From positions 19,562 to 83,561 of the IMG/VR virus record IMGVR_UViG_3300028887_000096: a stretch of DNA of 64,000 nt. One strand, written 5' to 3'. The DNA is from a virus. Its lineage: Duplodnaviria; Heunggongvirae; Uroviricota; Caudoviricetes. The position numbers and the translations under genes were made by a program. The notes under the pieces are model-generated. The model saw nothing but the letters and a program-made list of their open reading frames with translations, ran no database searches and was not told the DNA's origin. Below are positions 9,812-46,733 of the stretch, one piece after another; positions within the stretch are counted from its first letter, which is position 1, and the number at the start of each line of letters is the position of its first letter.

Positions 9812-9823
9812 AAAATGTCTTCG

Positions 9824-9907: not shown

Positions 9908-9911
9908 ATAG

Positions 9912-9984: not shown

Positions 9985-10000
9985 ATAAAAATCACGTCCA

Positions 10001-10798: not shown

Positions 10799-10816
10799 AA
10801 GAATATCTCCATTTAG

Positions 10817-10889: not shown

Positions 10890-10900
10890 ATAAAGTTTAG

Positions 10901-10973
10901 TAGCCCCTGCCGGATTCGAACCGACGTTCCTTGGCTGAAAACCAACTGTCCTAGTCCACTAGACGAAGGGGCC
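10901..10973 (-). tRNA. tRNA-Glu(TTC)
   Basis: D-arm GTCTAGTGGACTAGGAC, loop TTTTCAG, T-arm CGGTTCGAATCCG. Confidence 0.7.
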
Positions 10974-10976
10974 ATA

Positions 10977-11053
10977 TAGGCTATACTGGGATCGAACCAG
11001 TGACCTCGGGATTCGTAGTCCCGCGCTCTAAAATCCGGCTGAGCTAATAGCCT
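10977..11053 (-). tRNA. tRNA-Arg(ACG)
   Basis: Acceptor AGGCTAT/ATAGCCT, anticodon arm CGGGA-CTACGAA-TCCCG. Confidence 0.75.
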
Positions 11054-20497: not shown

Positions 20498-20512
20498 TTT
20501 TTGCTATATTTT
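20497..20512 (+). promoter_or_regulatory. Promoter motif TTTTTGCTATATTTT
   Basis: 5 nt before the Dam-like methyltransferase ATG. Confidence 0.55.
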
Positions 20513-20516
20513 GGTC

Positions 20517-21308
20517 ATGGACTTTATAAATTCCCCATTCCCGTATGCAGGCTGCAAGTATGACCTGCTCACCCACCTTGACCGGCTCATTCCGCAGGGC
20601 GAGCGCCTTTTTGACGTGTTCGGCGGTTCCGGTGCGGTCGGCGTGAACCTTTCCTACCGCTTCAACTACGTATGCGTCACGGATATACTCCGCGACCTCG
20701 TGCAGATGCACCGCAGTCTCCAGAACGACGACCCGGACCAGGTCATCGCCAGGTTGAAGGAACTTTCATCCAAGGTCCCGGAAAAGTATGCCGAATTGCG
20801 CAGCGCCTACAACGCGCTCCCGCCGAATGACCCGGACCGCGGCTACCGTCTTTACGGACTTATCCTCTCCTGCACGAACAACCTGATGCGCTTCAACCTC
20901 AAGGGCGGTTTCAACCAGACCTGCGGCAAGCGCCAGCTCACCGACAACAAGGAAAAGGAAATCCGTGCATGGTGCGAACGCCTGCAGTCCGCCAAAGGCA
21001 AGGTGTTCTTCGGCTACGGCTCGTTCGATCCGCCGTATTCCAACACGGAAGCCGGCTACAATTCCACCTGGACTGTCGCGGATGACGACAAGCTCTCCGC
21101 GTTCATGCTATCGCATCCCGGCTACAAGTATGTCCTGTCCAGCTGCAGCAAGGACGGGAAGACTACCCGACTGGTGGAGACCCTCCGCGACAGCGGAATG
21201 TACGACACGACGGAAGTCCCGCACGTTTACAAGGCCGCCAAGAAGAGCAAGACTTCCGAAACGGTAGAACTCATTTTGTGCAGCAAAAACTGCCAAATTT
21301 CGCAGTAA
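20517..21308 (+). CDS. DNA adenine methyltransferase (Dam-like, DPPY)
   Basis: FGGSGAV (SAM motif), FGYGSFDPPY (motif IV). Promoter motif at 20497-20512. ATG at 20517. Confidence 0.7.
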   Translation: MDFINSPFPYAGCKYDLLTHLDRLIPQGERLFDVFGGSGAVGVNLSYRFNYVCVTDILRDLVQMHRSLQNDDPDQVIARLKELSSKVPEKYAELRSAYNALPPNDPDRGYRLYGLILSCTNNLMRFNLKGGFNQTCGKRQLTDNKEKEIRAWCERLQSAKGKVFFGYGSFDPPYSNTEAGYNSTWTVADDDKLSAFMLSHPGYKYVLSSCSKDGKTTRLVETLRDSGMYDTTEVPHVYKAAKKSKTSETVELILCSKNCQISQ

Positions 21309-24971: not shown

Positions 24972-25098
24972 AATCCCCGATTTTGTGCACATTTGTGCAC
25001 TAACCTTGGCACCGTTTTTATTATAAACAATGACTACCCGCCGACGGAAACGGTCCTCCCGCACCGCCGGCCCAACTTCAACCTAAAGGATTCCTACA

Positions 25099-27668
25099 TG
25101 GAAGAATTACAGGACACGAAAATGTCGGAGCGCTCGTTCTTGAAGCAGGTCAAGAAGAAGGATGGCCCCCGGCAGAAGTTTGATCCCCTTAAAATCGAAC
25201 GCTGCATCACCCACGCACTCAATGACGCGAAGTGCACGCTCCCCCAGGAAAAAATCGAGGAAATGACCGGTGATGTGGTTGATTTGCTGTATGACTTGAA
25301 GCAGAAGTGCGTGAGCAATGAATCGGTTGCCATCGCTGTAAAGAAAGTTTTACGCGAAGTCAGCATGCCCGCCTATGATGCCTATGTCATCTTCCGCAAC
25401 AACCGCGACCGCGAACGCACCCTCCAGTCCCCCCTTATCAAGACCGTCCGCGAAATCAAGCATGCCGAGTTGCAGAGCTCCAATACCCTCCGCGACAACG
25501 CGAACGAGGCTGGCGGCACCCCGGCCGGCATGTTCGGCAAGATCGCCGGCGAAACCAACAAGATGTATAACCTGCTCGACAATGTGAGCAGGAAGTATGC
25601 GGAAGAACACACCAACGGCTACCTCCACATCCACGACCTCAACATGTATGACCTGACCTTCAACTGCCTCTTTGCCCCGGTAGGCAAGAAGTTGAGGACA
25701 GGCTTCGATTCCGGTACCGGCTTCCAGCGTCCGGCACAGACCATCCAGAGTGCTGCCGCGCTTACCGCCGTGATTCTCCAGTTGCAGTCCAACCAGCAAT
25801 ACGGCGGCATCGCCTGCGACAACTTCGATTTCGAGCTCGCCCCGTTCGTGGACCGTTCCTTCCGCAGGAACCTTGCCATCGAACTGAATGCGATGGCCGA
25901 ATATCGGGAAGAGGATGAGAACCTCGCCGAATATCGCACGCTCCCCGAAGAGTCCGACGACATCGAGAAGACTGTCAAGCGTATCGCGAAGGTGCTCGGC
26001 AAGGCCAATGTGTCCATGAACCAGCCGAGGAAGAAGCTCTATTGCAGTTTCCCGAAGAAGTGCGTCGACCGCGCATGGCTCTACACCGATGCCGATACGC
26101 ATCAGGCGATGGAGGCCCTTGTCCACAACTTGAACTCCTTGCAGTCTCGCTCTGGAAACCAAGTTCCGTTCTCGTCGTTGAACTTTGGCCTTGATACTTC
26201 CAACTGCGGACGAATGGTCAGCAAGAACCTCATGCGTGCCCAGTATGAGGGCATGGGCGACGGCCTGACCGCCATCTTCCCGATCCTCATCTTCAAGCTC
26301 ATGAAGGGTTATACCAAGAACCCGACCGACCCGAACTACGACCTTTACGAACAGGCCGTCGAATGTCTGGCCCGCCGTTTCTACCCGAACTTCGTGTCGG
26401 TGGACAGCACCTTCAACAAGCCCTATGTGAAGTACCGGACCAAGGAAATCGAACTCGCCGATGGGTTGCGCAACATCAAGCTCCGCGGAAAGGATGAGGG
26501 TTTCGCTGAATACCACGGGATCATCGAACGCTCCGAATGCCCGGAATATGAATACGAGGTGGAGCCGGGCGAATACTGGGAAATCGTCGAATACGATGAA
26601 AAGAAGCTCTCCCTTCGCAAGCTGATCGAGAACACCACCATTGCGACGATGGGATGCCGCACCCGTGTCATCGGCAATGTCAACGGCCCGGAACAGACTA
26701 CCGGCCGTGGCAACTTTGCCTTCCATACGATGAACCTCCCGCGCCTTGCCATCGAATCCCATATCGAGAAGGACAGTACCGACGAACGCATCGCACGCTT
26801 CTACGAGAAGCTCGACGCATTGCTCGACGATGCCAAGGAAAGCCTTGTTGAACGCTTTAACCTCGTGTGCCAGAAGACCTACGAGCGCTATCCGTTCACG
26901 ATGCAGGAAGGTTTGTACCTCACTTCCGATGACAAGAAGCATGAACTGTCCGATACCATCGCCGAGGTGATGAAGCAGTCCACGCTCTCCATCGGCTATA
27001 TCGGCATCGCCGAGACGATCAACCTCCTTACCGGCAAGATTTACGGTGTCGATCATGAGGTGGATGGACTTGCGGTGGCCATCGTGAAGCACATCCGTGA
27101 CTTCTGCGACGCTACCCAGAAGAAGACCCACATGAACTGGTCCTGCTTCGCCACCCCGGCAGAAGCGGTCGCGGGCCGGTTCGCCACCATCGACGCCAAC
27201 AAGTTCGCCGACAACAAGAAACTTGCCGATGTGAACCTTGAACGCATCTTCGGAAAGGGCTACTACACCAATTCCCACATGATGGACTTCTCTCTCGATG
27301 TCTCCCTCGACGAGAAGATCAAGGTGGAAGCCCCGTTCCATGCCCTCACCAATGCCGGGCATATATTCTACTACAAGTTGAACGGCGACTTGACGAAGAA
27401 CATCCCGGCAGTGAAGGCTGCCATCGACGCCATGTATGACGGCAACCTTGGGTACTTCACCGTCACGATGGATTCGGACGACTGTCTCAAGTGCGGCTAC
27501 CATGGCATCATCGACAATGTATGCCCGAAGTGCGGCTGCAAGGATGAACGCTATTTCGTCCGTGTCAGGCGAATTACCGGATATTTAACCGGTTCACCGC
27601 GGAAGAGTATTCTGGATGCTTGGTGCGATGGAAAGAAGAAGGAGCTCATCGATCGGCACAATATCTAG
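25099..27668 (+). CDS. nrdD: Anaerobic ribonucleoside-triphosphate reductase NrdD
   Basis: Class III RNR features. C-terminal CPKCGC zinc ribbon and glycyl-radical motif RRITGYLTG. Start reassigned to MEELQDTK, because the ORF-track start is an upstream extension. Confidence 0.8.
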
Positions 27669-27781: not shown

Positions 27782-29692
27782 ATGGAGCTCAATTTCATTT
27801 GTAAAATTTGTAATAAGCCGTTTGGCAAAACCGGGTTGACTAATCACATCCAGCGCACCCATAAAATGTCATATAAGGAGTATTATGACACTTTCATTGA
27901 TGGAAGCGAGCACCTGTGTCCCTATTGCGGCAAAGAGTGTGGGTTTGTTAGCCATTATGGTTATTACGAAACTTGTTGTGATCCCACATGTGTCAGAAAG
28001 GCGCAGCACCGGACAATGTATGCTCGATATGGTAAGGCCTGTCGCCACCCAGACAAAATTAAGGCAAAACCAATTATTGACTATCCATACCATTGCGAAA
28101 TATGTGGTCAAGGCACAAAGAATTTGCCGATGCTGAATAGGCATCTGAAAAAATATCACCCTGATGTAGATATTGAAAACTACTATAATACATATCTGGG
28201 AGTTAAACCACAAGTATGTGAGGTATGCGGTGGCCGAGCAAAGTGGTTGGGAACGCATTACCATAATGTTTGTGGATGCCCGGAGTGTACTAGCGTATTG
28301 CGTGGCAAGAATAATGCAATGAATAACCCGGTCTACCGCAAAAAAGCGAGGGATGCGCTAATTGCATTGCCGGACGAAAAAAAGCGGGCAATTCGCGAAA
28401 AGGTGGAGCAAACTTGCTTGGCACGCTTTGGGTATCGGCATAATTGGAGTTCCCCCGAACTGCGTGAGGCTGGCCAGTACGCCACATGCAAGGCACTATA
28501 TGGCGATCGGAATTACCATAATGTTGCGCAAATGCAGAATACTTGCACAGAACGGTTTGGCGTTAGGTCGTTTTCACAGACTGTTTCGTTTCAATCAAAA
28601 ATGTGGCATAAATTCAAGGTGGGTGAAATTACATTTGACTCGTCGTATGAGTATGCACTATATAATTTCTTGAATGCCGCTAAATTGCCATTTATTTATC
28701 ATCCGAAGGAATCTATTCGTTATGAATATGCCGGTAAAGAACACATGTTCTTTCCAGATTTCAAAATAAATGGCCATTTTTACGAGGTTAAGGGCGAGCA
28801 CCTGTATAAATATATGCAGACCCCGAACACTAAGGAGCATGCGAAACTGGAGTGCATTTTAGCAAACAATATCACACTTATAACAAAATGCGATGTATTT
28901 GCGTTTATTGATGCCGTATTTGGAAAATCGTTGAGTATTGATGCTATCGTTGAGCAATGCTTGCATACCGAGTTCCCGGGCAATGCGAAATGGCCTGCAT
29001 CACATCCCATTTGGGATTGCTTTGTTCCCGGGCATACTGATCCCCGCACTGCATGGGCAGACCCGGTGTTGGTTCGTAAAGGTGTTCTTAATCTAGTAAA
29101 GACATTGAACGACGCTCTAATTTCTGGAAAATATCCGGCATTCTGCACAAGATATATCAAATCTCTGCTGAGTGGAAATTACTTTGATAAGGTCCTGGAT
29201 AGGTTTACTATTGCAAAGATCGCGCCGAAAGTAACTGCATTACACGAAACCGAACTGTTGCGAATTATTGAGGAATCCGGTGTAGATTTAAGCCCCGGTG
29301 TGTATTGCCCAATGGCTGGGTTTGGCGGCATAGTTCGCGGTGTCAGACGGTGGTTTGAAACTCGCGGTATGCGCGGAGATATTGAGGCCTATGACATCAA
29401 TGACCGGTTCTGTAATTGGTATGGGTGGACTAGGCGTGATGTTTTGGCACAGGTGGTGCACACGAACAAGGTGGTTGTTGTTTGCCCTCCGTTTGGAAAG
29501 CAGTATGAGCACTGGAAGGGAACACCGGACGAAATGTCGGATATTACATTTAAACAATGGGTTTCCTTGATTAAGGAGCATGTCATTGCACCGAATTACA
29601 TATTTATTGGCCCAGAAGTCGATGACGGCAAGAACCGTTGTGGCCTATTTAAACGAAAGGTTGGAATTTCATTATATAAGGATGGTATATGA
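27782..29692 (+). CDS. Multi-zinc-finger protein with C-terminal DNA-methyltransferase-like motifs; low-GC insertion between nrdD and nrdG
   Basis: C2H2-like units (CKICNKPFGKTGLTNHIQRTH, CEICGQGTKNLPMLNRHLKKYH). C-terminal MAGFGGIVRG (motif I-like) and VVVCPPFG (motif IV-like). GC is about 40%, against about 60% in the flanks. Own promoter motif and terminator. Confidence 0.6.
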   Translation: MELNFICKICNKPFGKTGLTNHIQRTHKMSYKEYYDTFIDGSEHLCPYCGKECGFVSHYGYYETCCDPTCVRKAQHRTMYARYGKACRHPDKIKAKPIIDYPYHCEICGQGTKNLPMLNRHLKKYHPDVDIENYYNTYLGVKPQVCEVCGGRAKWLGTHYHNVCGCPECTSVLRGKNNAMNNPVYRKKARDALIALPDEKKRAIREKVEQTCLARFGYRHNWSSPELREAGQYATCKALYGDRNYHNVAQMQNTCTERFGVRSFSQTVSFQSKMWHKFKVGEITFDSSYEYALYNFLNAAKLPFIYHPKESIRYEYAGKEHMFFPDFKINGHFYEVKGEHLYKYMQTPNTKEHAKLECILANNITLITKCDVFAFIDAVFGKSLSIDAIVEQCLHTEFPGNAKWPASHPIWDCFVPGHTDPRTAWADPVLVRKGVLNLVKTLNDALISGKYPAFCTRYIKSLLSGNYFDKVLDRFTIAKIAPKVTALHETELLRIIEESGVDLSPGVYCPMAGFGGIVRGVRRWFETRGMRGDIEAYDINDRFCNWYGWTRRDVLAQVVHTNKVVVVCPPFGKQYEHWKGTPDEMSDITFKQWVSLIKEHVIAPNYIFIGPEVDDGKNRCGLFKRKVGISLYKDGI

Positions 29693-32973: not shown

Positions 32974-33010
32974 CGGCCGCGGGGCAATTCCGTCCCGCGG
33001 CTTTCTTTTG
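32974..33010 (+). terminator. Rho-independent terminator
   Basis: GCCGCGGG...CCCGCGGC hairpin followed by TTTCTTTT. Confidence 0.55.
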
Positions 33011-33020: not shown

Positions 33021-33824
33021 ATGTCCTATTCGCTGTTTTTCGGTGACTGTCTGGAGGAGATGAAGAAGCTCGCCCCCAAGTCGGTCGATATGATCCTATG
33101 TGACCTCCCCTACGGCGTCACGCACAACCCGCACGACAAGCGTATTGCCTTCGCGCCCCTATGGGAACAGTATGAACGCGTCATCAAGGACGACGGGGCA
33201 ATCGTCCTGTTCGCCCAGGGCCTGTTCTACGTTGACCTGGTGCAGTCCAAGCGCAAGCTGTTCCGCTACGACCTGGTCTGGAACAAGAAACTCGTCACCG
33301 GGTTCCTGAACGCCAAGCGCATGCCTCTCCGCTCCCACGAGCAGCTCGCCGTGTTCTACAAGACCATGCCGAAGTTCCACCCGCAGTTCCATGAAGGGAA
33401 GCCCCTCCACGGCCGCGGCAAGTCCTACATGTCTAAGGACATGGTGAACAACAACTACGGCAAGTTCAAGGCCACGGACGACGTCCGCAAGGGTAGCACC
33501 CAGAAATACCCGGTGTCCATCATCGACATCCCGAAACCGCACCCGTCCAAGTCCGAACACCGCACGGAAAAGCCCGTGGAACTTCTTTCCTGGCTTATCC
33601 GTTCCTACACGGAACCGGGCGATGTCGTCCTTGACAACTGCATGGGATGCGGCAGTACAGGCCTTGCCGCGCTGAAGGAAGGACGCACGTTCATCGGCAT
33701 GGAAATCGACAAGGAATACTTCGAGATTGCCTGGACACGCATTACCAAGCTGGCTGCCGACATGAACAAGGGCGACTTCCACGATGGCATCAAGACTGTC
33801 TTCAAGGAGGAAGCCGATGAGTAG
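33021..33824 (+). CDS. DNA methyltransferase, beta-class (motif IV DLPYG before motif I CMGCGSTG)
   Basis: Motif order IV then I, characteristic of N4C/N6A beta-class methyltransferases. ATG at 33021. Confidence 0.7.
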   Translation: MSYSLFFGDCLEEMKKLAPKSVDMILCDLPYGVTHNPHDKRIAFAPLWEQYERVIKDDGAIVLFAQGLFYVDLVQSKRKLFRYDLVWNKKLVTGFLNAKRMPLRSHEQLAVFYKTMPKFHPQFHEGKPLHGRGKSYMSKDMVNNNYGKFKATDDVRKGSTQKYPVSIIDIPKPHPSKSEHRTEKPVELLSWLIRSYTEPGDVVLDNCMGCGSTGLAALKEGRTFIGMEIDKEYFEIAWTRITKLAADMNKGDFHDGIKTVFKEEADE

Positions 33825-35103
33825 TAAAGCTGACATGGAACTGATGGAACCGAATAATTCCGTCGGGTTTCCCGTTCGTGCAGAAAAGTTTGCGAATGAA
33901 TGGGTTGCCAGGTTCCCATTCAGGGAGCGGTTCGGCATCCGCATGCAGGGATTAGACATCGACACCAAGGTGTTTGACCGCCGGGTACCCATTCTCTACC
34001 GCGAGCGCAAGCAGGAAGTCATGGATGCGCTCGGGTTCACCATGATTAGCCACATGCAGAAAGATACCTACGATTTTTGGAGCACGAGCTACCCGCAAGT
34101 GGATGTGGTCGAGGACATGGTCAAGAATGCGTTTTCCAGGACGGATGGCTACCCGGACCGGCTCACGTCGGCAATCAGGACGCTCAATCCCGATTGGGAA
34201 TATGGCCAGCCGACCAATGCGGTAGGCGTCCTGTTTACCGGAGGCCTGGACAGCACGGCGCTAGTCCTCAAGAACCTGGACGAGGGAAAGGTCGTCTTAC
34301 CGATTTACAACTGGATTAACTCCGAGTTTAAAGTTGCCCCGATACTCGCATATACGATGCTTGCCGCAATATCGAAGACCTACAAGGGCCCGGGCATCCT
34401 GATGCCTATGTATCGTGGCATCAATTTCCCTGCCGGGACGTGTAACTATGGCGGCAAGTTCGAGGGTTTCATCCAGCAGCCGGTCAATACGTTCAGCCTT
34501 GCCTACATCAACCCGCAAATCACGTCCCTGCTGGACGAGGTGCAGATGGGAATTGTCAAGGGGGACCAGTCCGAGACGTTCATCGAGGACATGCGGAAAC
34601 TTTATGACGGCACGTTTGCGCTCAGTCACCTGTACGGAAACCATGCACCGGAGTTCGAGAGCCAGGTTGCCCGCAAGCCGTCCTATACGTTCCCGCTCAT
34701 CAAGTGGGACAAGGCCATGGTTACCGAGTTCGTGGAGAAGCACGGCTTGGGCGGTCTCCCGCTCAGCTGCGAAGCGCCCTCGATTGCCTGCACGGTGTAT
34801 GCCAAGTTCACCGATGAGGAACGTGCGATAATCTACGGGCCCAGCGGGGACATGGCGATCAAGAGCGTCTTTGCCGGTCCTCGCCAGTGGTTGCTCCATG
34901 TGGTAATTTGCGACTGCGATGATTGCCATTCCTGCGGGAGAAGCCGCAATGAGGGCTATAATACGCGTGCAGTCTCGTTGCAATTCGGCATGGAAACCCT
35001 GGGCGGGGACGATATTGACCCGGCGTTCATTGACTACGGGGACATAATTAGGCCTGGCGTCACAATACGCAACGATGTCATGGTCCCGCACCTGTACAAA
35101 TAA
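33817..35103 (+). CDS. PP-loop ATP pyrophosphatase, QueC-like, with extra N-terminal domain
   Basis: VLFTGGLDSTALV (SGGxDS PP-loop) and C-terminal CDCDDCHSC cysteine cluster. Start overlaps the methyltransferase stop (GATGAGTAG). Confidence 0.55.
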   Translation: MSSKADMELMEPNNSVGFPVRAEKFANEWVARFPFRERFGIRMQGLDIDTKVFDRRVPILYRERKQEVMDALGFTMISHMQKDTYDFWSTSYPQVDVVEDMVKNAFSRTDGYPDRLTSAIRTLNPDWEYGQPTNAVGVLFTGGLDSTALVLKNLDEGKVVLPIYNWINSEFKVAPILAYTMLAAISKTYKGPGILMPMYRGINFPAGTCNYGGKFEGFIQQPVNTFSLAYINPQITSLLDEVQMGIVKGDQSETFIEDMRKLYDGTFALSHLYGNHAPEFESQVARKPSYTFPLIKWDKAMVTEFVEKHGLGGLPLSCEAPSIACTVYAKFTDEERAIIYGPSGDMAIKSVFAGPRQWLLHVVICDCDDCHSCGRSRNEGYNTRAVSLQFGMETLGGDDIDPAFIDYGDIIRPGVTIRNDVMVPHLYK

Positions 35104-35110: not shown

Positions 35111-35138
35111 ACGCCGCAGGAAACTGCGGCGTTTTTCG
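35111..35138. terminator. Bidirectional rho-independent terminator
   Basis: ACGCCGCAG-GAAA-CTGCGGCGT with T-runs on both sides. Confidence 0.7.
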
Positions 35139-35163: not shown

Positions 35164-35541
35164 TTACCATTCGACGATGAAGCGGGTCTCGAGAAAGCGC
35201 TTCTCGAATTCCTTCTTCTGCTGTACGCGCGGGTCAGATGCCGCATTGTCGAGGGTGATGATGTTGGACGGCTTGTCTTCCGTGACCTTGAACCCGTTGT
35301 CCTTGAGCTTCTGGATGAGGTCATGCTGCATCTGGTACATCTCGTTCACGCGGATGTCGTCCGCCTTCTGGCCGGCACCGGCGAACTGCATCTCGAAGAA
35401 GTTCTTCTTCATGATGTCGACGGGGCAGCCGCGGACGCCTGCCGCAAGAGTCATTCGTTCAAATTCCTGAAGGTGGGTCTTGTAAACGCGTTCGATTGCC
35501 GGGAGATTGGCAAGTTCTGCAAGTCTTTCTGCGTCGTTCAT
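35164..35541 (-). CDS. Hypothetical protein
   Basis: Start reassigned to ATG MNDAERLAE. Confidence 0.5.
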   Translation of the reverse strand: MNDAERLAELANLPAIERVYKTHLQEFERMTLAAGVRGCPVDIMKKNFFEMQFAGAGQKADDIRVNEMYQMQHDLIQKLKDNGFKVTEDKPSNIITLDNAASDPRVQQKKEFEKRFLETRFIVEW

Positions 35542-35788
35542 GATGTCTCCGTATAAAAGGGGTGGCAGTTTTCCGTTACCGGGTTTGATCATCCCGAGGC
35601 TGCCAACTCGTCCGGCTTACGATCCGGCCACTACGTGACGCACAGTTTGCACGTCCGACCGCGCAGACGATTTCGCTACCAGGGGAGGAGCTAATGCCTG
35701 CCGTCTTAGGTTCGGTGGGATGTTTCGGTCCGCTCTAGAAACGGCTGTGACATTAAATATACAAAAATGCCGGCGCCGGTCCAAGCGA

Positions 35789-36014: not shown

Positions 36015-36998
36015 ATGCGAACACTTCAAGCATTTCAACGCGAATACTACAGGTTCTGCCATGACGACCGCACCCCGTTCGAGCGGGACGGCATGCGCCT
36101 GTTGCCGGTGGACATCAAGCGGGATGAGAAAAACTTTACGCCGCACGGCATGCTGGTCGGGAACGGGCCGATTGCCGGCAAGAAGACCGAGGTCAAGGTG
36201 GCACAGGTCTGTGCACTCGTCCCGGCGCTCGCCATGCCCGTAGTGGTGAAGACCGAGGACGGCAAGCAGGAGTTCTATTCCGACTGTGCGGAAATACTGC
36301 CGAAATGGGAACTCGACACGTTCGCCGAGCGGATGGTCAAGGAGTTCGGTGACCCGAAGAAGGGCGACTTCGACGGACTGTTCGAGTTCAACATGACGAC
36401 CATCCGGTATGTCGGCCCGGGCGCCGCGAGCGACATGCACACAAGGGGCTGGACGCTTGACATCGCCGGGCACAAAGGCATGTTCACCGACATTGTCGGG
36501 AAGGATGGCGGTAGCCACCTGTTCCGTCTTTCATACGGCGAGAACAAGCACAGGGAGTGGGCGGATGTTACCGATGCCGACGTGGAGAGGGTGGTTTCCC
36601 AGCTGCGCGAGTTCATCAAGGTCCATACCGGGAAATGGAACGCCAAGCGCATATACACCCACCTGGACGACACGCTCGGCGAGTTCTTCGTAATCAACGA
36701 AGACGGGGTCGCGTTCATTCCGGCAATCCGCCTTGCACTGGCCAGGCGCAAGTCCCTTGCCTCCCCGGTGATCGTGAGCGCGAGCGGTTTTGCCGTCGTT
36801 CCCTGCGACAAGAACGGGGAGAACGAGAACGCGATAGTCGGCGTCGAACTGGACAAGTTCTGCGATGCCGACTACATCGCACTGTTCAACTACGTAAAGA
36901 ATACGCTGGCGACCGCATTCGCCTACCTTGCCGCCACAATAAAAAGAAACGAGCCGACCATTGATAGTCAGCTCGTCAAGCAAGAGGCCAAGGACTAG
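36015..36998 (+). CDS. Hypothetical protein
   Basis: Protein-like composition. TGTATATTTGG about 17 nt upstream. Confidence 0.6.
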   Translation: MRTLQAFQREYYRFCHDDRTPFERDGMRLLPVDIKRDEKNFTPHGMLVGNGPIAGKKTEVKVAQVCALVPALAMPVVVKTEDGKQEFYSDCAEILPKWELDTFAERMVKEFGDPKKGDFDGLFEFNMTTIRYVGPGAASDMHTRGWTLDIAGHKGMFTDIVGKDGGSHLFRLSYGENKHREWADVTDADVERVVSQLREFIKVHTGKWNAKRIYTHLDDTLGEFFVINEDGVAFIPAIRLALARRKSLASPVIVSASGFAVVPCDKNGENENAIVGVELDKFCDADYIALFNYVKNTLATAFAYLAATIKRNEPTIDSQLVKQEAKD

Positions 36999-37462
36999 GC
37001 CTTTGCGGATGTCTCCGGGAGGTCTCCCACGTCACGCAAGTATGTGAGGCGGGAGCAGAACTCCTGGACGGTCAGCACCGTGTGGTGGGTGTCGTGCTTT
37101 CCCACGGAGTGGGTGAGCGTCGCCTTGTTGGTCGCGAGCAGTGCGCTGCGGAACCCGGGGTTCTTGTTCAGCTGGTTGTATGCGCGGTTCAGCAGGATCT
37201 GGTATGCTTCGGAGTCACGCTTGATGGGGATGCCCTTCCAGTAGAGCGTCTGGTCGCGGTACCAGTTCTTGTGCTTGCCCTTGTGCTTTGCCTTGATGCC
37301 CACGAGAGAGCATACGTAGATCTGCATCTCCGGGTTGGAGAACTTGAGCGATTGCAGGAAGCCTTCCATCGAGGCGCACTCCACCCCGTCGAACGTGAAC
37401 GGGTGAGGGGCGAAGTTGCTGAGGGTTCCTGCCGGATATGAATTGTTGCTTCCGATGTCCAT
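36995..37462 (-). CDS. NADAR-domain (YbiA/DUF1768-like) protein
   Basis: LSNFAPHPFTFDGVECASMEGFLQSLKF...WYRDQTLYWKG matches the YbiA/NADAR N-glycosidase fold signature. Promoter motif upstream. Confidence 0.55.
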   Translation of the reverse strand: MDIGSNNSYPAGTLSNFAPHPFTFDGVECASMEGFLQSLKFSNPEMQIYVCSLVGIKAKHKGKHKNWYRDQTLYWKGIPIKRDSEAYQILLNRAYNQLNKNPGFRSALLATNKATLTHSVGKHDTHHTVLTVQEFCSRLTYLRDVGDLPETSAKA

Positions 37463-39150: not shown

Positions 39151-39669
39151 ATGTCAAACGAAAATGAAACCGTTGTTGTCCCGCTCTCCAAGATGCTCGT
39201 AACCGAAAAGAAGCCGTATGAAGGCGAACTACAACCACCGCCGTTCGCTTCCGACTGGCCGTTCCTCCCGAGCGAAATCCCGGGAGTCGACGTTTCCAAC
39301 GCATCGACGGATATTACTCCCGAAATGGACATCAAGGCTCTCGCCATGGCCGCACTCCGTATCCAGCGCGATGCGAAGCGCTATGCCGCGATCAATACCA
39401 ACAAGGGCACCGGCACCTATTCGTCGAAGCTCCTTGCCAAGAACATCGCGTGCGCCATCAAGGCGGCAATCAACGCCAGTTACGTCGGCAAGAACCTCGG
39501 CGACACTCTCGGCGACGCGTATTACCTGGAGAACGTCCGTAACTCCTATGTCGACCCGGGCTGCCTTTCCAAGGACGAACGTGTTGCCAAGGCAATCGAG
39601 CAGGCCAGGGGTCTCCGTCTCCGTTTCATCGAAGAAATTATCGAAGCCGGCAGCAAAGGCAGAATGTAA
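39151..39669 (+). CDS. Hypothetical protein
   Basis: Promoter motif at 39122-39136. Confidence 0.6.
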   Translation: MSNENETVVVPLSKMLVTEKKPYEGELQPPPFASDWPFLPSEIPGVDVSNASTDITPEMDIKALAMAALRIQRDAKRYAAINTNKGTGTYSSKLLAKNIACAIKAAINASYVGKNLGDTLGDAYYLENVRNSYVDPGCLSKDERVAKAIEQARGLRLRFIEEIIEAGSKGRM

Positions 39670-41690
39670 TGTCCAAGAACCGTAATTTACGCGAGGCGAA
39701 GACTGCCAAGAACGACGAGTTCTACACCAGTTACAGCGACGTCTCCCACGAGATGAAGGCGCTGTTCGAACGCGACCCCGGCTTCTTCGCCAACCGCACC
39801 GTCCTGTGTCCGTGCAACGACCTTGAACACCCGGGGTTCCGCGACTTCTTCATCGACAACTTCCAGGGACTGGGCCTCCGCAGGCTCACCTGTACCAGCT
39901 ATGTCCCTGGCCATCGCGGCCACGCGGAGACGGTTTCTCTCGGACGGGACGGCAATATTAAGGTTGCCCGATGGGTGCTGGATGGAGACGGGGACTTCCG
40001 TTCCCCGGAAATCACGAAGTTCATGCAGCATTCCGACCTGGTCGTGACCAACCCCCCTTTCAGCTGTTTCTCTTCAGATACCGAGGTGCTCACCGACGGA
40101 GGCTGGAAGCTGTTTACCGCCGTCAAGCCGGGCGACCTCGTCCTCAGCATGGACCCGGCAACCCGCAAGGTCGAATACGCCCGCATCGTTCGTTTCTACG
40201 ACACCCCGTACAAGGGCGAGCTGTTCCACTTCAAGAAGTCCGGCATGGACCTCATGGTGACCGGAAACCACCGCATGATCTGCAACGAGCGCAAGGACCT
40301 GTTCTGCCGCGCTGACGAGGTGGTCCCCCACTACCACTCGGTGCCTATCCGCGGGCTGGAATACGACTGGAGCGGCATCCACGAGGAGTTCTTCACGCTC
40401 CCGAGCGTCATGCAGAACGAACGCTACACCCACAAGGACATCACCGTCCCGGAAAAGAAAATCCCGATGGGCGACTGGCTGGAGTTCCTCGGGTTCTGGC
40501 TTGCCGACGGCTGCGTCCGCTTCGGCAACAACGTGAACGGCAATCCCCGCTACACGATCAGCATCAAGCAGAACGAGGACAACGAGAAGTACGTCATCGA
40601 CCTTTACGCCAAGATCGGCTTTCCGTGCAAGGTGGAACGGTCCAGCAAGACCAGGAACCACAACTACACCGTGTACAGCAAGCAGCTGTGGACCTACCTC
40701 GCGAAGTTCGGCAAGGGCATCGAGAAGAAGTTCCCGACGGAAGTCCTCTACATGGAACCGGCCTACATGGCCCGCTTCCTCGACGGCTACATGAAGGGCA
40801 ACTCCCATCTCTCTCACATCGGCGGGAAGGTGAGCCAGGCAATCGGCAGTACCGCCCCGAAGCTGTGCGAGGGCCTGCAGGAGCTCATCCTGAAAGTGCG
40901 CGGCGTGCTCGTGCAGTTCATCCAGCGCAAGTCCAAGGGAAACCCCTACTGGATGGCGAACTGGGCAATCGAGACCAAGAAGCGCAACACGGACTACCCG
41001 GTGCCGGAGAAGGTCCAGTATGACGGGACCGTGCACTGCCTGGAACTCGACCGCAACCATACCATGCTCGTCCGCAGGAACGGCCTGGCGACCTGGTGCG
41101 GGAACTGCTTCCGGGACTTCGTGGACTGGGTCGACGGCGCCGACAGGGACTTCTATGTCATCGGCAACAAGAACTGCGTCAACTACAACGAGGTGTTCCG
41201 CAAGCTGCGCTCCGGCAGGATCCAGCTCGGCATCACCTCCCCGGACGAGTTCGGGACGCCGGACGGCGAGACCGAGAAGGTCACCGGCCTTTGTCGGTGG
41301 TACACGAACATGTTCGTCCCCCGGACGGAAGACGAGCGAGGCATCTGTCTGCGGGCCACCTACGACCCGGCGAAATACCCCAAGTTCGAGAACTTCGACG
41401 CGATCAACGTCGACAGGGTTTCCGACATCCCGAAGGACTACTACGGGGTGATGGGCGTCCCGATTACGTTCTTCGACCATTTCGACCCGAAGCAGTTCGA
41501 GGTCCTTGGCCGGAGCGGGGACACCGCGTGGGTATTCGGCGAGTGCGAGTTCTTTACGCCCCCGCCGGAGGAACGGCAGAAGGCGTACAAGGCCTACTAC
41601 AAGAACTGGCGGGTGCAGAACAGCTACCTGCTCGACGAGAACGGGATGCCGAAGTGCATCTATTACAGAGTTTTCATAAGGAGAAGATGA
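39669..41690 (+). CDS. N6-adenine DNA methyltransferase interrupted by an intein
   Basis: N-extein ends ...DLVVTNPPFS (motif IV). The intein runs from CFSSDTEVLTDGGW to ...NGLATWCGN. The C-extein resumes at CFRDF. Confidence 0.7.
   Translation: MSKNRNLREAKTAKNDEFYTSYSDVSHEMKALFERDPGFFANRTVLCPCNDLEHPGFRDFFIDNFQGLGLRRLTCTSYVPGHRGHAETVSLGRDGNIKVARWVLDGDGDFRSPEITKFMQHSDLVVTNPPFSCFSSDTEVLTDGGWKLFTAVKPGDLVLSMDPATRKVEYARIVRFYDTPYKGELFHFKKSGMDLMVTGNHRMICNERKDLFCRADEVVPHYHSVPIRGLEYDWSGIHEEFFTLPSVMQNERYTHKDITVPEKKIPMGDWLEFLGFWLADGCVRFGNNVNGNPRYTISIKQNEDNEKYVIDLYAKIGFPCKVERSSKTRNHNYTVYSKQLWTYLAKFGKGIEKKFPTEVLYMEPAYMARFLDGYMKGNSHLSHIGGKVSQAIGSTAPKLCEGLQELILKVRGVLVQFIQRKSKGNPYWMANWAIETKKRNTDYPVPEKVQYDGTVHCLELDRNHTMLVRRNGLATWCGNCFRDFVDWVDGADRDFYVIGNKNCVNYNEVFRKLRSGRIQLGITSPDEFGTPDGETEKVTGLCRWYTNMFVPRTEDERGICLRATYDPAKYPKFENFDAINVDRVSDIPKDYYGVMGVPITFFDHFDPKQFEVLGRSGDTAWVFGECEFFTPPPEERQKAYKAYYKNWRVQNSYLLDENGMPKCIYYRVFIRRR
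40065..41105 (+). mobile_element. LAGLIDADG-type intein (about 347 aa) inside the methyltransferase
   Basis: Hint block A C-x-x-x-T-x-V-L-T-x-x-G. Two LAGLIDADG-like motifs (EFLGFWLADGCV, ARFLDGYMKGNSH). C-terminal VHCLELDRNHTMLV...N followed by a +1 Cys. Confidence 0.65.
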
Positions 41691-45560: not shown

Positions 45561-45656
45561 TTCGCTGGTAAGCGCCGGGAGCCGTCGGACGGACAACTCG
45601 AGTAAGGTCGCCCGCTCCTCCCGGCGCCGGGACAGTCAGCACATGTCCCACCCCCT

Positions 45657-45728
45657 AGCCCTCGGGTGTGACTGGTAGCATCGCAGACTCCAAATCTGCA
45701 GGATGGCGTTCGAAGCGTCAGGGGGCTG
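45657..45728 (+). tRNA. tRNA-Trp(CCA)
   Basis: Acceptor AGCCCTC/GGGGGCT, anticodon arm GCAGA-CTCCAAA-TCTGC, T-arm TGGCGTTCGAAGCGTCA. Confidence 0.6.
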
Positions 45729-45732
45729 TTAC

Positions 45733-45805
45733 GCATCTGTAGCTCAGTTGGTAGAGCGCATCCTTGCCATGGATGAGGTCACCGGATCGAAGCCGGCCAG
45801 ATGCT
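45733..45805 (+). tRNA. tRNA-Gly(GCC)
   Basis: D-arm GCTCAGTTGGTAGAGC, loop TTGCCAT. Confidence 0.75.
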
Positions 45806-45814
45806 CGAAATTAC

Positions 45815-45885
45815 GCGCCTATGGTGTATTGGCTGCATCGCTGCCTTCCAAGCAGCGGGATCCGTTTCGACTACGGATAGGCGCT
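45815..45885 (+). tRNA. tRNA-Gly(TCC)
   Basis: Acceptor GCGCCTA/TAGGCGC, loop CTTCCAA. Confidence 0.75.
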
Positions 45886-45892
45886 TTAAAAT

Positions 45893-45963
45893 GCTTCTAT
45901 ATGCTAATGGTAGACGAGCGGACTCTTAATCCGTGGGTTCTGGTTCGAGTCCAGATAGGAGCA
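45893..45963 (+). tRNA. tRNA-Lys(CTT), isotype tentative
   Basis: Loop CTCTTAA, T-arm TCTGGTTCGAGTCCAGA. Confidence 0.55.
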
Positions 45964-45970
45964 CTAACAT

Positions 45971-46043
45971 TCCGGCGTAGCTCAGTTGGTAGAGCGGCCC
46001 CTTCATACGGGGTTGGTCGCAGGTTCGAGCCCTGCCACCGGGA
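45971..46043 (+). tRNA. tRNA-Met(CAT)
   Basis: D-arm GCTCAGTTGGTAGAGC, loop TTCATAC, T-arm GCAGGTTCGAGCCCTGC. Confidence 0.7.
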
Positions 46044-46057
46044 CTAACAATCAACTT

Positions 46058-46131
46058 CGATGCGTGGTGTAATTGGTTAGCACGCCGCTCTGATAAGGCG
46101 GTAGTTGTTGGTTCGAGTCCAGCCGTATCGA
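46058..46131 (+). tRNA. tRNA-Ile(GAT)
   Basis: Loop CTGATAA, T-arm GTTGGTTCGAGTCCAGC. Confidence 0.65.
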
Positions 46132-46185
46132 CTAAGGAGTAAGAATATGAACAGACGAAAACGTAATACCTCGCGAATTTGATTC

Positions 46186-46258
46186 ACGGGTGTGGCGAAA
46201 TTGGTATCGCAATAGACTTTTAATCTATGGGCTGCGGGTTCGATCCCCGTCACCCGTA
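46186..46258 (+). tRNA. tRNA-Lys(TTT)
   Basis: Anticodon arm ATAGA-CTTTTAA-TCTAT, T-arm GCGGGTTCGATCCCCGT. Confidence 0.75.
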
Positions 46259-46263
46259 TAACT

Positions 46264-46337
46264 GGGGCCATAGTTCAGTTGGATAGAACGCCGGCTTGTC
46301 ACGCCGGAAATCGCGGGTTCGAGCCCCGCTGGTCCCG
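46264..46337 (+). tRNA. tRNA-Asp(GTC)
   Basis: Anticodon arm CCGGC-TTGTCAC-GCCGG. Confidence 0.8.
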
Positions 46338-46341
46338 CTAC

Positions 46342-46415
46342 GGTGCCGTAGCTCAGTTGGACAGAGCAGCCGTCTTCTAAACGGCCGGTCGAATGTTCGA
46401 CTCATTCCGGCATCA
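46342..46415 (+). tRNA. tRNA-Arg(TCT)
   Basis: Anticodon arm GCCGT-CTTCTAA-ACGGC. Confidence 0.75.
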
Positions 46416-46426
46416 CGCTTTTTTCG

Positions 46427-46499
46427 GCGTATAGCGCAGTTGGTAGCGCACATGCTTCGGGAGCATGGGGTCGCTGGTTCGAGTCCAGCTACGCCGACT
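46427..46499 (+). tRNA. tRNA-Pro(CGG)
   Basis: Anticodon arm CATGC-TTCGGGA-GCATG. Confidence 0.75.
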
Positions 46500-46509
46500 A
46501 GACTTTCCG

Positions 46510-46582
46510 GGGTGTAGCTCAGATGGTAGAGCGCCTGCTTTGGGAGCAGGATGTCGCAGGTTCGAGCCCTGCTACCCCGATA
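46510..46582 (+). tRNA. tRNA-Pro(TGG)
   Basis: Anticodon arm CCTGC-TTTGGGA-GCAGG. Confidence 0.75.
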
Positions 46583-46585
46583 TGC

Positions 46586-46658
46586 CGTCGTAGCTCAGTT
46601 GGTAGAGCAGCGCACCTGTAATGCGCCGGTCGCTGGTTCGAGGCCGGCCGACGGCTTA
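46586..46658 (+). tRNA. tRNA-Thr(TGT), with C33
   Basis: Anticodon arm GCGCA-CCTGTAA-TGCGC. Position 33 is C, which is unusual. Confidence 0.6.
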
Positions 46659-46661
46659 TGC

Positions 46662-46733
46662 CGGGTTAGCTCAGTGGTAGAGCAGGGCTTTCGTAAAGCT
46701 CAGGTCGCAGGTTCGAGCCCTGCACCCGGCTCT
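46662..46733 (+). tRNA. tRNA-Thr(CGT)
   Basis: Anticodon arm GGGCT-TTCGTAA-AGCTC. Confidence 0.7.

What the first reader, a model, noticed from the sequence alone, without database searches (positions are those of the whole stretch)
33021..35103. Translationally coupled beta-class DNA methyltransferase and QueC-like PP-loop enzyme: candidate DNA hypermodification pair
The methyltransferase (motifs DLPYG then CMGCGSTG) stop overlaps the start of a 429-aa protein with an SGGxDS PP-loop (TGGLDST) and a C-terminal Cys cluster like the QueC zinc site. It also has an N-terminal domain of about 150 aa that QueC lacks. QueC-family enzymes feed 7-deazaguanine DNA modifications in phages. Other PP-loop enzymes (DndC, TilS-like) also modify nucleic acids. 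No TGT/DpdA-like partner was recognised by eye in this window.
Basis: inference. Interest (0 to 1): 0.6.

Follow-up and report, generated by a model that had tools for sequence, protein, structure and literature searches.

The report
Orphan methylase plus singleton QueC-like enzyme
A giant gut or rumen phage carries an ordinary DNA adenine methylase followed by a fast-evolving, unusually decorated relative of the queuosine enzyme QueC, but comparison with related phages suggests the two genes are neighbours by descent rather than a DNA-hypermodification pair.

Summary
A beta-class DNA methyltransferase (33021-33824) overlaps by 8 nt a 428-aa PP-loop protein (33817-35103). A Shine-Dalgarno site lies inside the methylase 3' end, and terminator hairpins bracket the two genes.

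The QueC-like call holds at superfamily level. The nearest solved relatives are Cap9 and B. subtilis QueC, the four zinc cysteines are kept, and there is an extra N-terminal domain of about 130 aa.

It is not a canonical QueC:
- No Pfam QueC hit.
- The YxQxHxxE, VPxRN and YPDC substrate motifs are lost.
- No TGT/DpdA, FolE, QueD, QueE or CmoA was found in 64 kb.

It belongs to the "singleton phage QueC-like" group (phrog_1550), which Hutinet et al. 2019 already suspected to be unrelated to 7-deazaguanine synthesis.

The "pair" reading is weak:
- The methylase is a common orphan type, with the same DLPYG motif in solitary phage methylases.
- The PP-loop gene occurs without a methylase in the sister clade and in outgroups.
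- Stop/start overlap is the norm in this genome (14 of 27 neighbour pairs).
- The two genes evolve very differently (dN/dS 0.12 against 0.63).
- A recombination breakpoint sits exactly at their junction.

Most likely this is an orphan m6A methylase plus an ATP-dependent adenylating amide ligase whose variable N-domain recognises an unknown partner.

The parts
32975..33002 (+). Intrinsic-terminator-like hairpin followed by TTCTTTT. It closes the upstream flotillin unit and marks the start of the two-gene unit.
   Evidence: 11-bp stem, 9 GC pairs; sequence.
33021..33824 (+). Orphan beta-class (motif IV then motif I) DNA methyltransferase, most likely N6-adenine specific, 267 aa.
   Evidence: PF01555 1.7e-28 and phrog_67 1e-67. 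Nearest solved structures are the m6A enzymes CcrM, RsrI, MboIIA and DpnA. It is 45-53% identical to solitary methylases in 400 phage records.
33102..33116 (+). Methylase motif IV, DLPYG (aa 28-32), a variant of DPPY.
   Evidence: Invariant in the window and in solitary homologues from Salmonella phage S102 and an Acinetobacter phage record.
33633..33662 (+). Methylase motif I (SAM binding), DNCMGCGSTG (aa 205-214).
33804..33810 (+). Shine-Dalgarno sequence AAGGAGG for the PP-loop gene. It lies inside the methylase 3' end, 6 nt before ATG 33817.
   Evidence: Sequence.
33817..35103 (+). Singleton QueC-like PP-loop ATP pyrophosphatase, 428 aa. Its start overlaps the methylase stop by 8 nt.
33817..34206 (+). 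N-terminal alpha/beta domain (aa 1 to about 130) with no recognisable relatives. It is the most variable part of the protein.
   Evidence: No Pfam or NCBIfam hit. Identity between subclades is 22-28%, against 45-60% for the core. It cannot be aligned at DNA level between otherwise 98%-identical phages.
34237..34257 (+). PP-loop (pyrophosphate-binding) motif TGGLDST, aa 141-147.
   Evidence: Invariant in the family. Aligns with SGGQDST of B. subtilis QueC and SGGMDS of Cap9.
34207..34776 (+). QueC-like Rossmann core (aa 131-320). It carries the family motifs PIYNWIN, FEGFIQQPxN, DEVQMGIVKGDQS, FALSH and FPLxxWDK, and the first zinc cysteine in SCE (C318).
34777..34914 (+). Insertion of about 46 aa between zinc Cys1 and Cys2, specific to this subfamily. 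Spacing is C(x)48C against C(x)8C in QueC.
   Evidence: The outgroups P0014 and P0016 have about 21 residues here, and phage QueC-like P0035 and B. subtilis QueC have about 8.
34915..34935 (+). CxxCxxC part of the zinc site (C367, C370, C373; DCDDCHSCGRS).
   Evidence: Nearly invariant in 101 sequences. Aligned to CGECPAC of B. subtilis QueC.
35111..35132 (.). GC-rich hairpin with T-runs on both strands. It is a likely bidirectional terminator shared with the convergent gene at 35164-35592 (-).
   Evidence: sequence.

Best explanation
These are two functionally independent genes that are co-transcribed because phage genes are tightly packed.

Gene 1 is an ordinary orphan beta-class DNA methyltransferase, most likely m6A. 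It is one of at least three methylases in this window, and it protects the phage genome from restriction.

Gene 2 is a divergent member of the "singleton phage QueC-like" PP-loop ATP pyrophosphatases.

Shown:
- An intact PP-loop, a four-cysteine zinc site and a conserved lysine (K299).
- A strongly conserved pocket, so it is an active enzyme.

Inferred from QueC and Cap9 chemistry:
- It binds ATP and adenylates a carboxylate (or carbonyl) on its substrate.
- It then lets an amine attack, forming an amide and releasing AMP and PPi.

Further inference:
- The residues that canonical QueC uses to hold 7-carboxy-7-deazaguanine and to complete nitrile formation are replaced, and no deazaguanine pathway is nearby. 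It is therefore not a preQ0 synthase.
- The hypervariable N-terminal domain and the subfamily-specific insertion in the zinc ribbon most likely grip a macromolecular partner, as the N- and C-terminal extensions of QatC grip QatB.
- The fast, recombination-driven turnover of this gene suggests that the partner is itself variable, for example a host or defence protein.
For: Methylase is ordinary:
- PF01555, phrog_67 and m6A enzymes as nearest structures.
- It is 45-53% identical to solitary methylases in 400 phage records, including about 42-kb Jerseyvirus genomes, with the same CDLPYG motif.
- Two further methylases lie in the window: D12 Dam-type and EcoRI-like.

PP-loop protein belongs to the singleton QueC-like group:
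- phrog_1550.
- 77 of 88 distant relatives match phrog_1550 and 55 of 88 match Pfam QueC weakly.
- hhalign probability 100%.
- Cultured relatives in Ackermannviridae and jumbo Pseudomonas phages stand alone, with no que genes beside them.
- Hutinet 2019 reached the same view of such singletons (PMC6884629).

Active enzyme, but not QueC:
- Invariant TGGxDST, N224, D250, K299 and the cysteines.
- YxQxHxxE becomes YNWINSE and VPxRN becomes QQPVN (against motifs in PMC13082051).

No pathway partners were found.

Decoupling from the methylase:
- Between lineages the methylase is 86.5% identical and the PP-loop protein 40-42%.
- dN/dS is 0.12 for the methylase and 0.63 for the PP-loop gene.
- DNA identity of 98% ends within 10 nt of the PP-loop start codon.
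- The sister clade and the outgroups lack an adjacent methylase.

Overlap is the norm in this genome.

Mechanism precedent: Cap9 and QatC adenylate CDG and attach it to a protein N-terminus (10.1101/2025.04.06.647259, PMC13279940, PMC13639016).
Against: - The two genes form a tight unit bracketed by terminators, and the overlap is kept in all three clade-A sublineages even where the PP-loop allele has been replaced. That is at least compatible with co-function.
- A methylase-like enzyme plus an AMP-forming ligase is now a proven route to phage DNA hypermodification (CmoX/CmoY, PMC12783734).
- No substrate or partner has been identified. No neighbour with a conserved N-terminal glycine tail was found.
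- Elevated dN/dS could reflect relaxed constraint rather than an arms race.
- Only about 72 kb of a roughly 430-470 kb genome was inspected.
Confidence: 0.55

Rival explanations
1. DNA-hypermodification pair, as the first reader proposed and updated with the CmoX/CmoY precedent. The methylase homologue would install a handle on DNA, for example a carboxymethyl group from host carboxy-SAM on adenine N6. The QueC-like ligase would adenylate that carboxylate and amidate it, giving an N6-carbamoylmethyl-adenine-like or amino-acid-conjugated base.
For: - There is an 8-nt overlap and a strong internal SD, and terminators bracket just these two genes.
- The arrangement is kept in every clade-A locus.
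- QueC chemistry is carboxylate to amide.
- A phage methylase-like enzyme plus an ATP-dependent amide ligase acting on DNA has been demonstrated (PMC12783734).
- Variation of the ligase could diversify the appended group.
Against: - The methylase has the same catalytic motifs as solitary orphan methylases in small phages that lack any ligase.
- It is a beta-class N6/N4 enzyme, not a C5 CmoX type.
- No CmoA was found in the window.
- The ligase family occurs without a methylase in clade B, P0014, P0016, L028 and L029, and in cultured phages.
- Every domain of the protein is acidic (pI 4.7-5.6), which is unusual for a DNA-binding enzyme.
- The recombination breakpoint sits at the gene junction and the evolutionary rates are very unequal.
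Confidence: 0.12
2. A 7-deazaguanine pathway component. The protein would be a divergent QueC, DpdC or Gat-QueC-like enzyme. It would convert host-supplied CDG or preQ0 for insertion into phage DNA by a DpdA encoded elsewhere in the genome, or for queuosine in the phage's own GUN-anticodon tRNAs.
For: - The nearest characterised families are QueC and Cap9.
- The zinc site and PP-loop are intact.
- The phage encodes tRNA-Tyr(GUA), Asn(GUU) and Asp(GUC), which are Q substrates.
- Only part of the genome was visible.
Against: - No Pfam QueC hit for the protein.
- YxQxHxxE, the essential Arg of VPxRN, and YPDC are not conserved. Mutation of these residues abolishes QueC activity in E. coli (PMC13082051).
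- No TGT/DpdA, FolE, QueD or QueE in about 72 kb.
- Relatives in fully sequenced Ackermannviridae and jumbo phages are singletons, and the deazaguanine specialists judged them functionally unrelated (PMC6884629).
Confidence: 0.1
3. A tRNA-modifying PP-loop enzyme in the functional style of TilS, ThiI, MnmA or TtcA. It would act on the phage's large tRNA set, for example to protect or tune anticodon loops alongside the RtcB tRNA ligase.
For: - There are 26 tRNA genes and an RtcB in the same window.
- Many PP-loop enzymes adenylate a base carbonyl in tRNA.
Against: - Sequence profiles favour QueC and Cap9 over tRNA thiolases and TilS: E about 1e-8 against 0.02-0.1.
- No THUMP, PUA or other RNA-binding domain was detected.
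- All domains are acidic.
- No [4Fe-4S] or persulfide cysteine pattern typical of the thiolases is present.
Confidence: 0.08

Closest known systems
Singleton phage QueC-like PP-loop ATPases (PHROG phrog_1550). Examples are the proteins in Erwinia phage phiEa2809, Serratia phage phiMAM1, Pseudomonas phages PS119XW and PA1C, and Salmonella SFP10 and Escherichia ECML-4 as discussed by Hutinet et al. 2019.
   Same: - Same core, with shared motifs: FxGGxDST, PIY, QQP, DE(I/V)Q(I/M)G, FPL..K, SCE.P and CxxCxxC.
- hhalign probability 100%.
- Encoded alone in large phages without other que genes.
- Function unknown.
   Different: - Identity is only about 25-30%.
- This subfamily adds an N-terminal domain of about 130 aa, an insertion of about 46 aa inside the zinc ribbon and a C-terminal tail.
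- It is confined to one group of uncultured jumbo phages: 13 clusters among 5.8 billion proteins.
- In one lineage it sits behind a methylase.
Canonical QueC (7-cyano-7-deazaguanine synthase, PF06508; B. subtilis 3BL5)
   Same: - PP-loop Rossmann fold.
- C-terminal four-cysteine zinc site.
- Conserved Asn of the RN motif and conserved Lys.
- Full-length profile alignment.
   Different: - No PF06508 hit for the protein itself.
- YxQxHxxE, the Arg of VPxRN, and YPDC are not kept.
- Cys1-Cys2 spacing is 48 residues rather than 8.
- It is twice as long.
- No queD, queE or folE linkage.
Cap9 (type IV CBASS) and QatC (QatABCD): QueC-family protein deazaguanylases
   Same: - QatC shares the architecture of a QueC core with N- and C-terminal extensions and a widened zinc motif, and its CDG-recognition residues are also remodelled (PMC13279940, PMC13082051).
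   Different: - It is encoded by a phage, not a defence island.
- No CD-NTase, Cap10, QatA, QatB or QatD neighbour.
- No PADLOC QatC match, only a weak "QueC" match at E 0.008.
- No partner with a conserved Met-Gly N-terminus was identified.
CmoX/CmoY (with CmoA) 5-carboxymethylcytosine-glycine hypermodification of Synechococcus phage S-B43
   Same: A methyltransferase-fold gene next to an ATP-dependent, AMP-forming PP-loop amide ligase in a phage. The chemistry is carboxylate adenylation followed by amine attack (PMC12783734).
   Different: - CmoX is a C5-cytosine enzyme with an SPPC motif and a carboxylate-binding Arg, whereas this one is a beta-class N6/N4 enzyme.
- CmoY is an asparagine-synthetase homologue, whereas this one is QueC-like.
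- No CmoA was found here.

Membership tests
Beta-class N6/N4 DNA methyltransferase (PF01555) | Pfam match above the gathering score | tested here: met
   100.5 bits against a cut-off of 26.7, covering residues 22-237.
Beta-class N6/N4 DNA methyltransferase (PF01555) | Motif IV ((D/S)PP(Y/F)-type) lies N-terminal to motif I (FxGxG-type) | tested here: met
   DLPYG at aa 28-32 and CMGCGSTG at aa 207-214. Pro is replaced by Leu at the second position, and solitary homologues share this.
Canonical QueC (PF06508 cluster 1) | SGGxDS pyrophosphate loop | tested here: met
   TGGLDST at aa 141-147, invariant in the family. The first Ser is replaced by Thr.
Canonical QueC (PF06508 cluster 1) | Pfam PF06508 match | tested here: not met
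   No Pfam family at E <= 1 for the protein. Only distant relatives touch PF06508, with a best E of 1e-11.
Canonical QueC (PF06508 cluster 1) | YxQxHxxE motif (the Tyr is essential) | tested here: not met
   The aligned segment is Y164-N-W-I-N168-S-E. Tyr is kept, Gln becomes Trp and His becomes Asn (motif from PMC13082051).
Canonical QueC (PF06508 cluster 1) | VPxRN motif (the Arg is essential) | tested here: not met
   The aligned segment is Q220-Q-P-V-N224. Arg is replaced by V, L, M or Y across the family, and only Asn is kept.
Canonical QueC (PF06508 cluster 1) | YPDC substrate motif | tested here: inconclusive
   The region reads GDQSETF(I/V/T)(E/D/K). An aromatic residue (F/Y255) is conserved, the acid is not conserved in clade B, and the alignment is gapped here.
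Canonical QueC (PF06508 cluster 1) | C(x)8CxxCxxC zinc motif | tested here: inconclusive
   All four cysteines are conserved and aligned (C318, C367, C370, C373), but the spacing is C(x)48C because of an insertion. Metal binding was not tested.
Canonical QueC (PF06508 cluster 1) | Genomic linkage to queD, queE and folE (and to dpdA in phages) | tested here: not met
   None found in the 64-kb window or in 8 kb beyond its left end. The rest of the genome was not visible.
Singleton phage QueC-like group (phrog_1550) | Profile match to the family | tested here: met
   phrog_1550 9.8e-8. hhalign of A1 against A2 gives probability 100% and E 2.3e-46 over residues 122-395.
Singleton phage QueC-like group (phrog_1550) | Encoded without other 7-deazaguanine genes | tested here: met
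   True for the window, for relatives' loci, and for cultured phages phiEa2809 and PS119XW within +/-5 kb.
Cap9/QatC protein deazaguanylases | Operon partner that is the protein substrate (CD-NTase or QatB with a conserved N-terminal Gly tail) | tested here: not met
   No CD-NTase, Qat or Cap10 genes are present. Upstream ORFs in clade B and beside P0016 are small lipoprotein or transmembrane peptides, and in clade A the upstream gene is a methylase starting MSYS.
Cap9/QatC protein deazaguanylases | Profile match to defence-system models | tested here: not met
   PADLOC gives only "QueC" PDLC00911 at E 0.008, with no QatC model.
Cap9/QatC protein deazaguanylases | Catalysis of N-terminal nucleobase conjugation | not testable with these tools
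   This needs biochemistry or mass spectrometry.
CmoX/CmoY/CmoA DNA hypermodification | C5-cytosine methylase fold with SPPC and a carboxylate-binding Arg, a CmoA Cx-SAM synthase nearby, and an asparagine-synthetase-type ligase | tested here: not met
   The methylase is PF01555 beta-class. No class-I SAM-MTase or CmoA-type hit was found in the window. The ligase has no Asn_synthase hit.
DndC / PAPS-reductase-type PP-loop | Profile match to the PAPS reductase family | tested here: not met
   phrog_424 E 0.23. PDB PAPS reductase E 1.4-1.8.

The most novel reading that the evidence does not exclude
The PP-loop protein would be the first virus-encoded QueC-family protein-modifying enzyme. It would be a Cap9/QatC-like ligase whose hypervariable N-terminal domain targets a host or defence protein, or a phage protein. 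It would attach a nucleobase-type or other carboxylate to that protein, or compete for the substrate of deazaguanylation-dependent immunity. Allele swapping at this locus would then reflect an arms race with that target.
Probability: 0.15. Interest if true: 0.75.

Novelty: new variant of a known kind. Interest (0 to 1): 0.38.

Why it matters
QueC-family enzymes were shown in 2025-2026 to do more than make preQ0. Cap9 and QatC attach a deazaguanine to protein N-termini to switch on anti-phage immunity.

Large phages carry orphan QueC-like genes whose role has been unknown since they were noticed in 2019. This locus adds an elaborated, fast-evolving, recombination-prone version with QatC-like architecture. 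That makes it a reasonable candidate for testing whether phages use the same chemistry, possibly against the host.

The finding also removes a tempting but weakly founded annotation, "7-deazaguanine or DNA-hypermodification pair", for a methylase and QueC-like neighbour pair.

Tried and rejected
- Direct tblastn of the PP-loop protein and of its nearest outgroup P0014 against 50,697 phage records found nothing. Only a more typical relative, P0035, reached cultured phages.
- The first AF2 run used the 14-sequence alignment and was unusable, with pLDDT 49.7. It was redone with 101 sequences and gave pLDDT 83.6.
- The afdb50 fold library was unavailable. BFVD was used instead.
- hhalign of the family against a single B. 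subtilis QueC sequence aligned only the PP-loop, at probability 34%. The link to QueC rests on the wider profile.
- I looked for a conserved small upstream partner that might be a protein substrate. The upstream ORFs in clade B and beside P0016 are unrelated lipoprotein or transmembrane peptides, so this was rejected.
- I looked for the window's right end in the assembly index in order to extend it. It was not on record.
- The radical SAM gene at 54705-55592 was checked as a possible QueE. It matches only generic radical-SAM PHROGs.
- Literature searches combining PP-loop with phage DNA hypermodification returned nothing directly. The CmoX/CmoY paper came from a broader search.
- DndC, TilS and asparagine or NAD synthetase assignments were considered and rejected on profile scores.
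Full report
**1. The observation**

The two ORFs exist as described.

- The methyltransferase runs from ATG 33021 to TAG 33824 (267 aa).
- It has DLPYG (aa 28-32) ahead of DNCMGCGSTG (aa 205-214).
- It scores 100.5 bits on Pfam N6_N4_Mtase (cut-off 26.7) and 1e-67 on phrog_67.
- Its nearest solved relatives are the m6A enzymes CcrM, RsrI, MboIIA and DpnA. The m4C enzyme PvuII is far weaker.

The downstream ORF starts at ATG 33817 and ends at TAA 35103.

- It is 428 aa, and every close homologue is 428-429 aa and starts at the same Met.
- The overlap is 8 nt (ATGAGTAG). A consensus AAGGAGG lies 6 nt upstream of the start.
- Terminator-like hairpins sit just before the methylase (32975-33002) and just after the PP-loop gene (35111-35132).

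The two genes therefore look like one transcription unit. Overlap itself is not informative here. Using longest-ORF starts, 14 of 27 same-strand neighbour pairs in this window overlap.

**2. Genomic setting**

The window is part of an uncultured jumbo phage.

- Near-identical or related loci lie on contigs of 119 kb up to 473 kb from metagenomes.
- Neighbours include NrdD and NrdG, a flotillin-like protein, a T4 gp30.3/NADAR-like protein, an EcoRI-like methylase, RtcB, a sigma factor, a head protease, a terminase-like ORF and 26 tRNA genes.
- There is no nucleotide-level or PP-loop protein match in 50,697 cultured phage records.

**3. What the PP-loop protein is**

On its own the protein hits nothing in Pfam or NCBIfam.

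- It does hit phrog_1550 "QueC-like" at 9.8e-8 and PADLOC "QueC" weakly.
- Only 13 clusters in 5.8 billion proteins are full-length relatives.
- An exhaustive profile search found 247 relatives. All but three representatives match only the core, profile positions of about 139-330.
- Of 88 such relatives, 77 match phrog_1550 and 55 match Pfam QueC weakly.
- hhalign of the family against that set gives probability 100% and E 2e-46.
- A profile of the combined set hits Cap9 (1.2e-8), B. subtilis QueC over its full length (9.7e-8), a second QueC and QatC. NAD synthetase, argininosuccinate synthetase and TilS-type chains stay above E 0.01.

With the deeper alignment, AlphaFold gives a confident model (pLDDT 83.6, pTM 0.88).

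- Foldseek covers Cap9 best (TM 0.65 on the target) and B. subtilis QueC next (TM 0.57-0.58, rmsd about 4 Å).
- Against viral models the best hits are orphan "7-cyano-7-deazaguanine synthase" or "alpha hydrolase" proteins of jumbo phages (Noxifer, Vibrio phage YC, RSF1, Wellington, Miami) and mycobacteriophage Muddy.

**4. Why it is not a canonical QueC**

I used the motif set defined and mutationally tested by Libby et al. (PMC13082051). I added B. subtilis QueC to the 101-sequence alignment.

- The PP-loop is kept (TGGLDST).
- YxQxHxxE is YNWINSE.
- VPxRN is QQPVN, so the essential Arg is lost and only the Asn is kept.
- The YPDC region reads GDQSETF and cannot be aligned confidently.
- The conserved Lys is kept (K299 in FPLIKWDK).
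- All four zinc cysteines are kept (C318, C367, C370, C373), but with 48 residues between the first two instead of 8.

The family's own pocket residues are invariant across 14 sequences that are otherwise only about 35-40% identical. This argues for an active enzyme with a different substrate.

The protein adds three elements to the core:

- an N-terminal alpha/beta domain of about 130 aa with no detectable relatives;
- the insertion of about 46 aa in the zinc ribbon;
- a C-terminal tail.

This layout resembles QatC, which uses such extensions to hold its protein substrate QatB (PMC13279940, PMC13639016).

**5. No pathway partners in view**

I scanned every ORF of at least 60 aa in the window against Pfam and PHROGs.

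- There is no TGT/DpdA, FolE, QueD/PTPS or QueE, no second QueC, and no CmoA-like SAM enzyme.
- The one radical-SAM gene (54705-55592) matches only generic radical-SAM PHROGs.
- Eight kb beyond the left end adds nothing.
- Cultured phages with phrog_1550 genes (phiEa2809, PS119XW) also carry them alone.
- Hutinet et al. 2019 singled out such singleton QueC-like proteins (SFP10, ECML-4, SP-15, Muddy) as probably a functionally unrelated subgroup of N-type ATP pyrophosphatases (PMC6884629).

**6. Is the methylase a partner?**

Adjacency holds in every locus of one lineage, clade A (L001-L003, L013, L014, L019-L027). These loci share the whole NrdD-NrdG-flotillin-methylase-PP-loop-gp30.3-EcoRI-methylase synteny, so they amount to a single observation.

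In the sister clade (P0008-P0013, L004-L006, L028, L029) and the nearest outgroups (P0014, P0016), the gene has no methylase beside it. It follows unrelated small lipoprotein or transmembrane ORFs.

The methylase is 45-53% identical to solitary methylases in 400 phage records. Small Jerseyvirus genomes are among them, with the same CDLPYG motif.

The two genes also evolve in opposite ways.

- Between the window and the L002/L013 lineages the methylase is 86.5% identical and the PP-loop protein 40-42%. Typical neighbours are about 65%.
- Window against L001 dN/dS is 0.12 for the methylase and 0.13 for the EcoRI-like methylase. It is 0.29 for flotillin and 0.63 for the PP-loop gene, reaching 0.83 in its C-terminal part.
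- Two phages that are 98% identical at DNA level through flotillin and the methylase lose all DNA similarity within 10 nt of the PP-loop start codon. They regain only about 65% in the core.
- The N-domain is 22-28% identical between subclades, against 45-60% for the core.

So the PP-loop gene behaves as a swappable, fast-evolving cassette downstream of a conserved methylase.

**7. Mechanism**

Shown:

- A PP-loop fold with an intact ATP-pyrophosphate loop.
- A conserved four-cysteine site and conserved pocket residues.
- Membership of the singleton phage QueC-like group.

Inferred from QueC and Cap9 chemistry:

- Adenylation of a carboxylate or carbonyl, then attack by an amine to give an amide.

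Inferred from architecture and evolutionary pattern:

- The variable N-domain and the insertion recognise a macromolecular, variable partner.

All domains are acidic (pI 4.7-5.6). This mildly disfavours direct nucleic-acid binding. The substrate is not identified.

**8. The strongest rival**

CmoX/CmoY (PMC12783734) proves that a methylase-fold enzyme plus an AMP-forming PP-loop ligase can hypermodify phage DNA.

The defining parts of that system are absent here: a C5-cytosine enzyme with a carboxylate-binding Arg, a CmoA, and an asparagine-synthetase-type ligase. The comparative data in section 6 also argue against obligate coupling. I leave this reading at about 0.12. The deazaguanine-pathway reading is at about 0.10, limited mainly by the unseen 85% of the genome. 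A tRNA-modification reading is at about 0.08.

**9. Verdict**

The QueC-like assignment is right at superfamily level. The "hypermodification pair" is not supported.

What remains is a new, decorated and rapidly diversifying variant of an already noticed but uncharacterised phage enzyme group. It is of moderate interest given the recent discovery of protein deazaguanylation by QueC-family enzymes.

Noticed in passing
window 8858-11053 (-) and 45656-46732 (+); RtcB at 3696-4901 (+): There are two tRNA arrays totalling 26 tRNA genes. They include the queuosine-substrate anticodons Tyr(GUA), Asn(GUU) and Asp(GUC) and a single CAU tRNA. An RtcB tRNA ligase lies in the same window.
   Followed up: partly
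L003 1-1854 against L013 1513-3366 and L014 1-1298; window 33817-34206: The PP-loop gene is an allele-replacement hot spot. Two phages are 98% identical in DNA through flotillin and the methylase, then become unalignable within 10 nt of the PP-loop start codon. dN/dS is 0.63 against 0.12-0.29 for neighbours.
   Followed up: yes
window 27782-29692 (+): A 636-aa ORF (DUF7487 plus a weak C2H2 zinc-finger hit) sits between nrdD and nrdG. It has low GC3 (0.44) and lies in a local GC dip (0.46). It is present in L001 and L022 but absent from the L002 lineage, so it looks like a mobile insertion.
   Followed up: partly
window 39669-41690 (+): The Pfam match of this EcoRI-like adenine methylase is split into three stretches. 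Weak Hint, intein-splicing and LAGLIDADG hits fall at residues 132-348, so an intein is possible. The length is conserved in related phages at 667-673 aa.
   Followed up: no
window 24993-27668 (+): NrdD is 98-99.7% identical to the L002, L020 and L023 lineage, whose other shared genes are about 65% identical. It is only about 80% identical to the otherwise closest lineage, L001. This suggests recent recombination.
   Followed up: partly
window 20511-21308 (+): A D12-class Dam-type methylase is a third DNA methyltransferase in the window. It is 51% identical to one in the P0016 phage locus L011.
   Followed up: no
window 36995-37462 (-): A T4 gp30.3-family protein (PF08010, 4.7e-56) with a weak NADAR match. 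It is conserved next to the locus in all clade-A phages.
   Followed up: no
window 54705-55592 (+) and 55694-56731 (+): A radical-SAM protein (CNAKCGFC) of unknown role sits immediately upstream of a 345-aa ORF. That ORF matches only part of terminase large-subunit profiles, so the terminase may be split or fragmentary.
   Followed up: no
L005 10001-10948 and 10982-11311 (266-kb contig); same in L006: The clade-B PP-loop homologue P0013 is split into 315-aa and 109-aa ORFs. This is a frameshift or pseudogene, or an assembly error seen in two samples.
   Followed up: partly
window 38546-63761 (exact ORF not pinpointed): One ORF in the second half of the window matches DUF34/NIF3 (PF01784, 7e-41). 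This family has historically been mis-annotated as GTP cyclohydrolase I type 2.
   Followed up: no
L004 20857-21311; L005 4801-6165 and 17697-18911: TnpB/IS605 OrfB-type (Cas12f-like) genes are scattered in the clade-B jumbo-phage loci.
   Followed up: no
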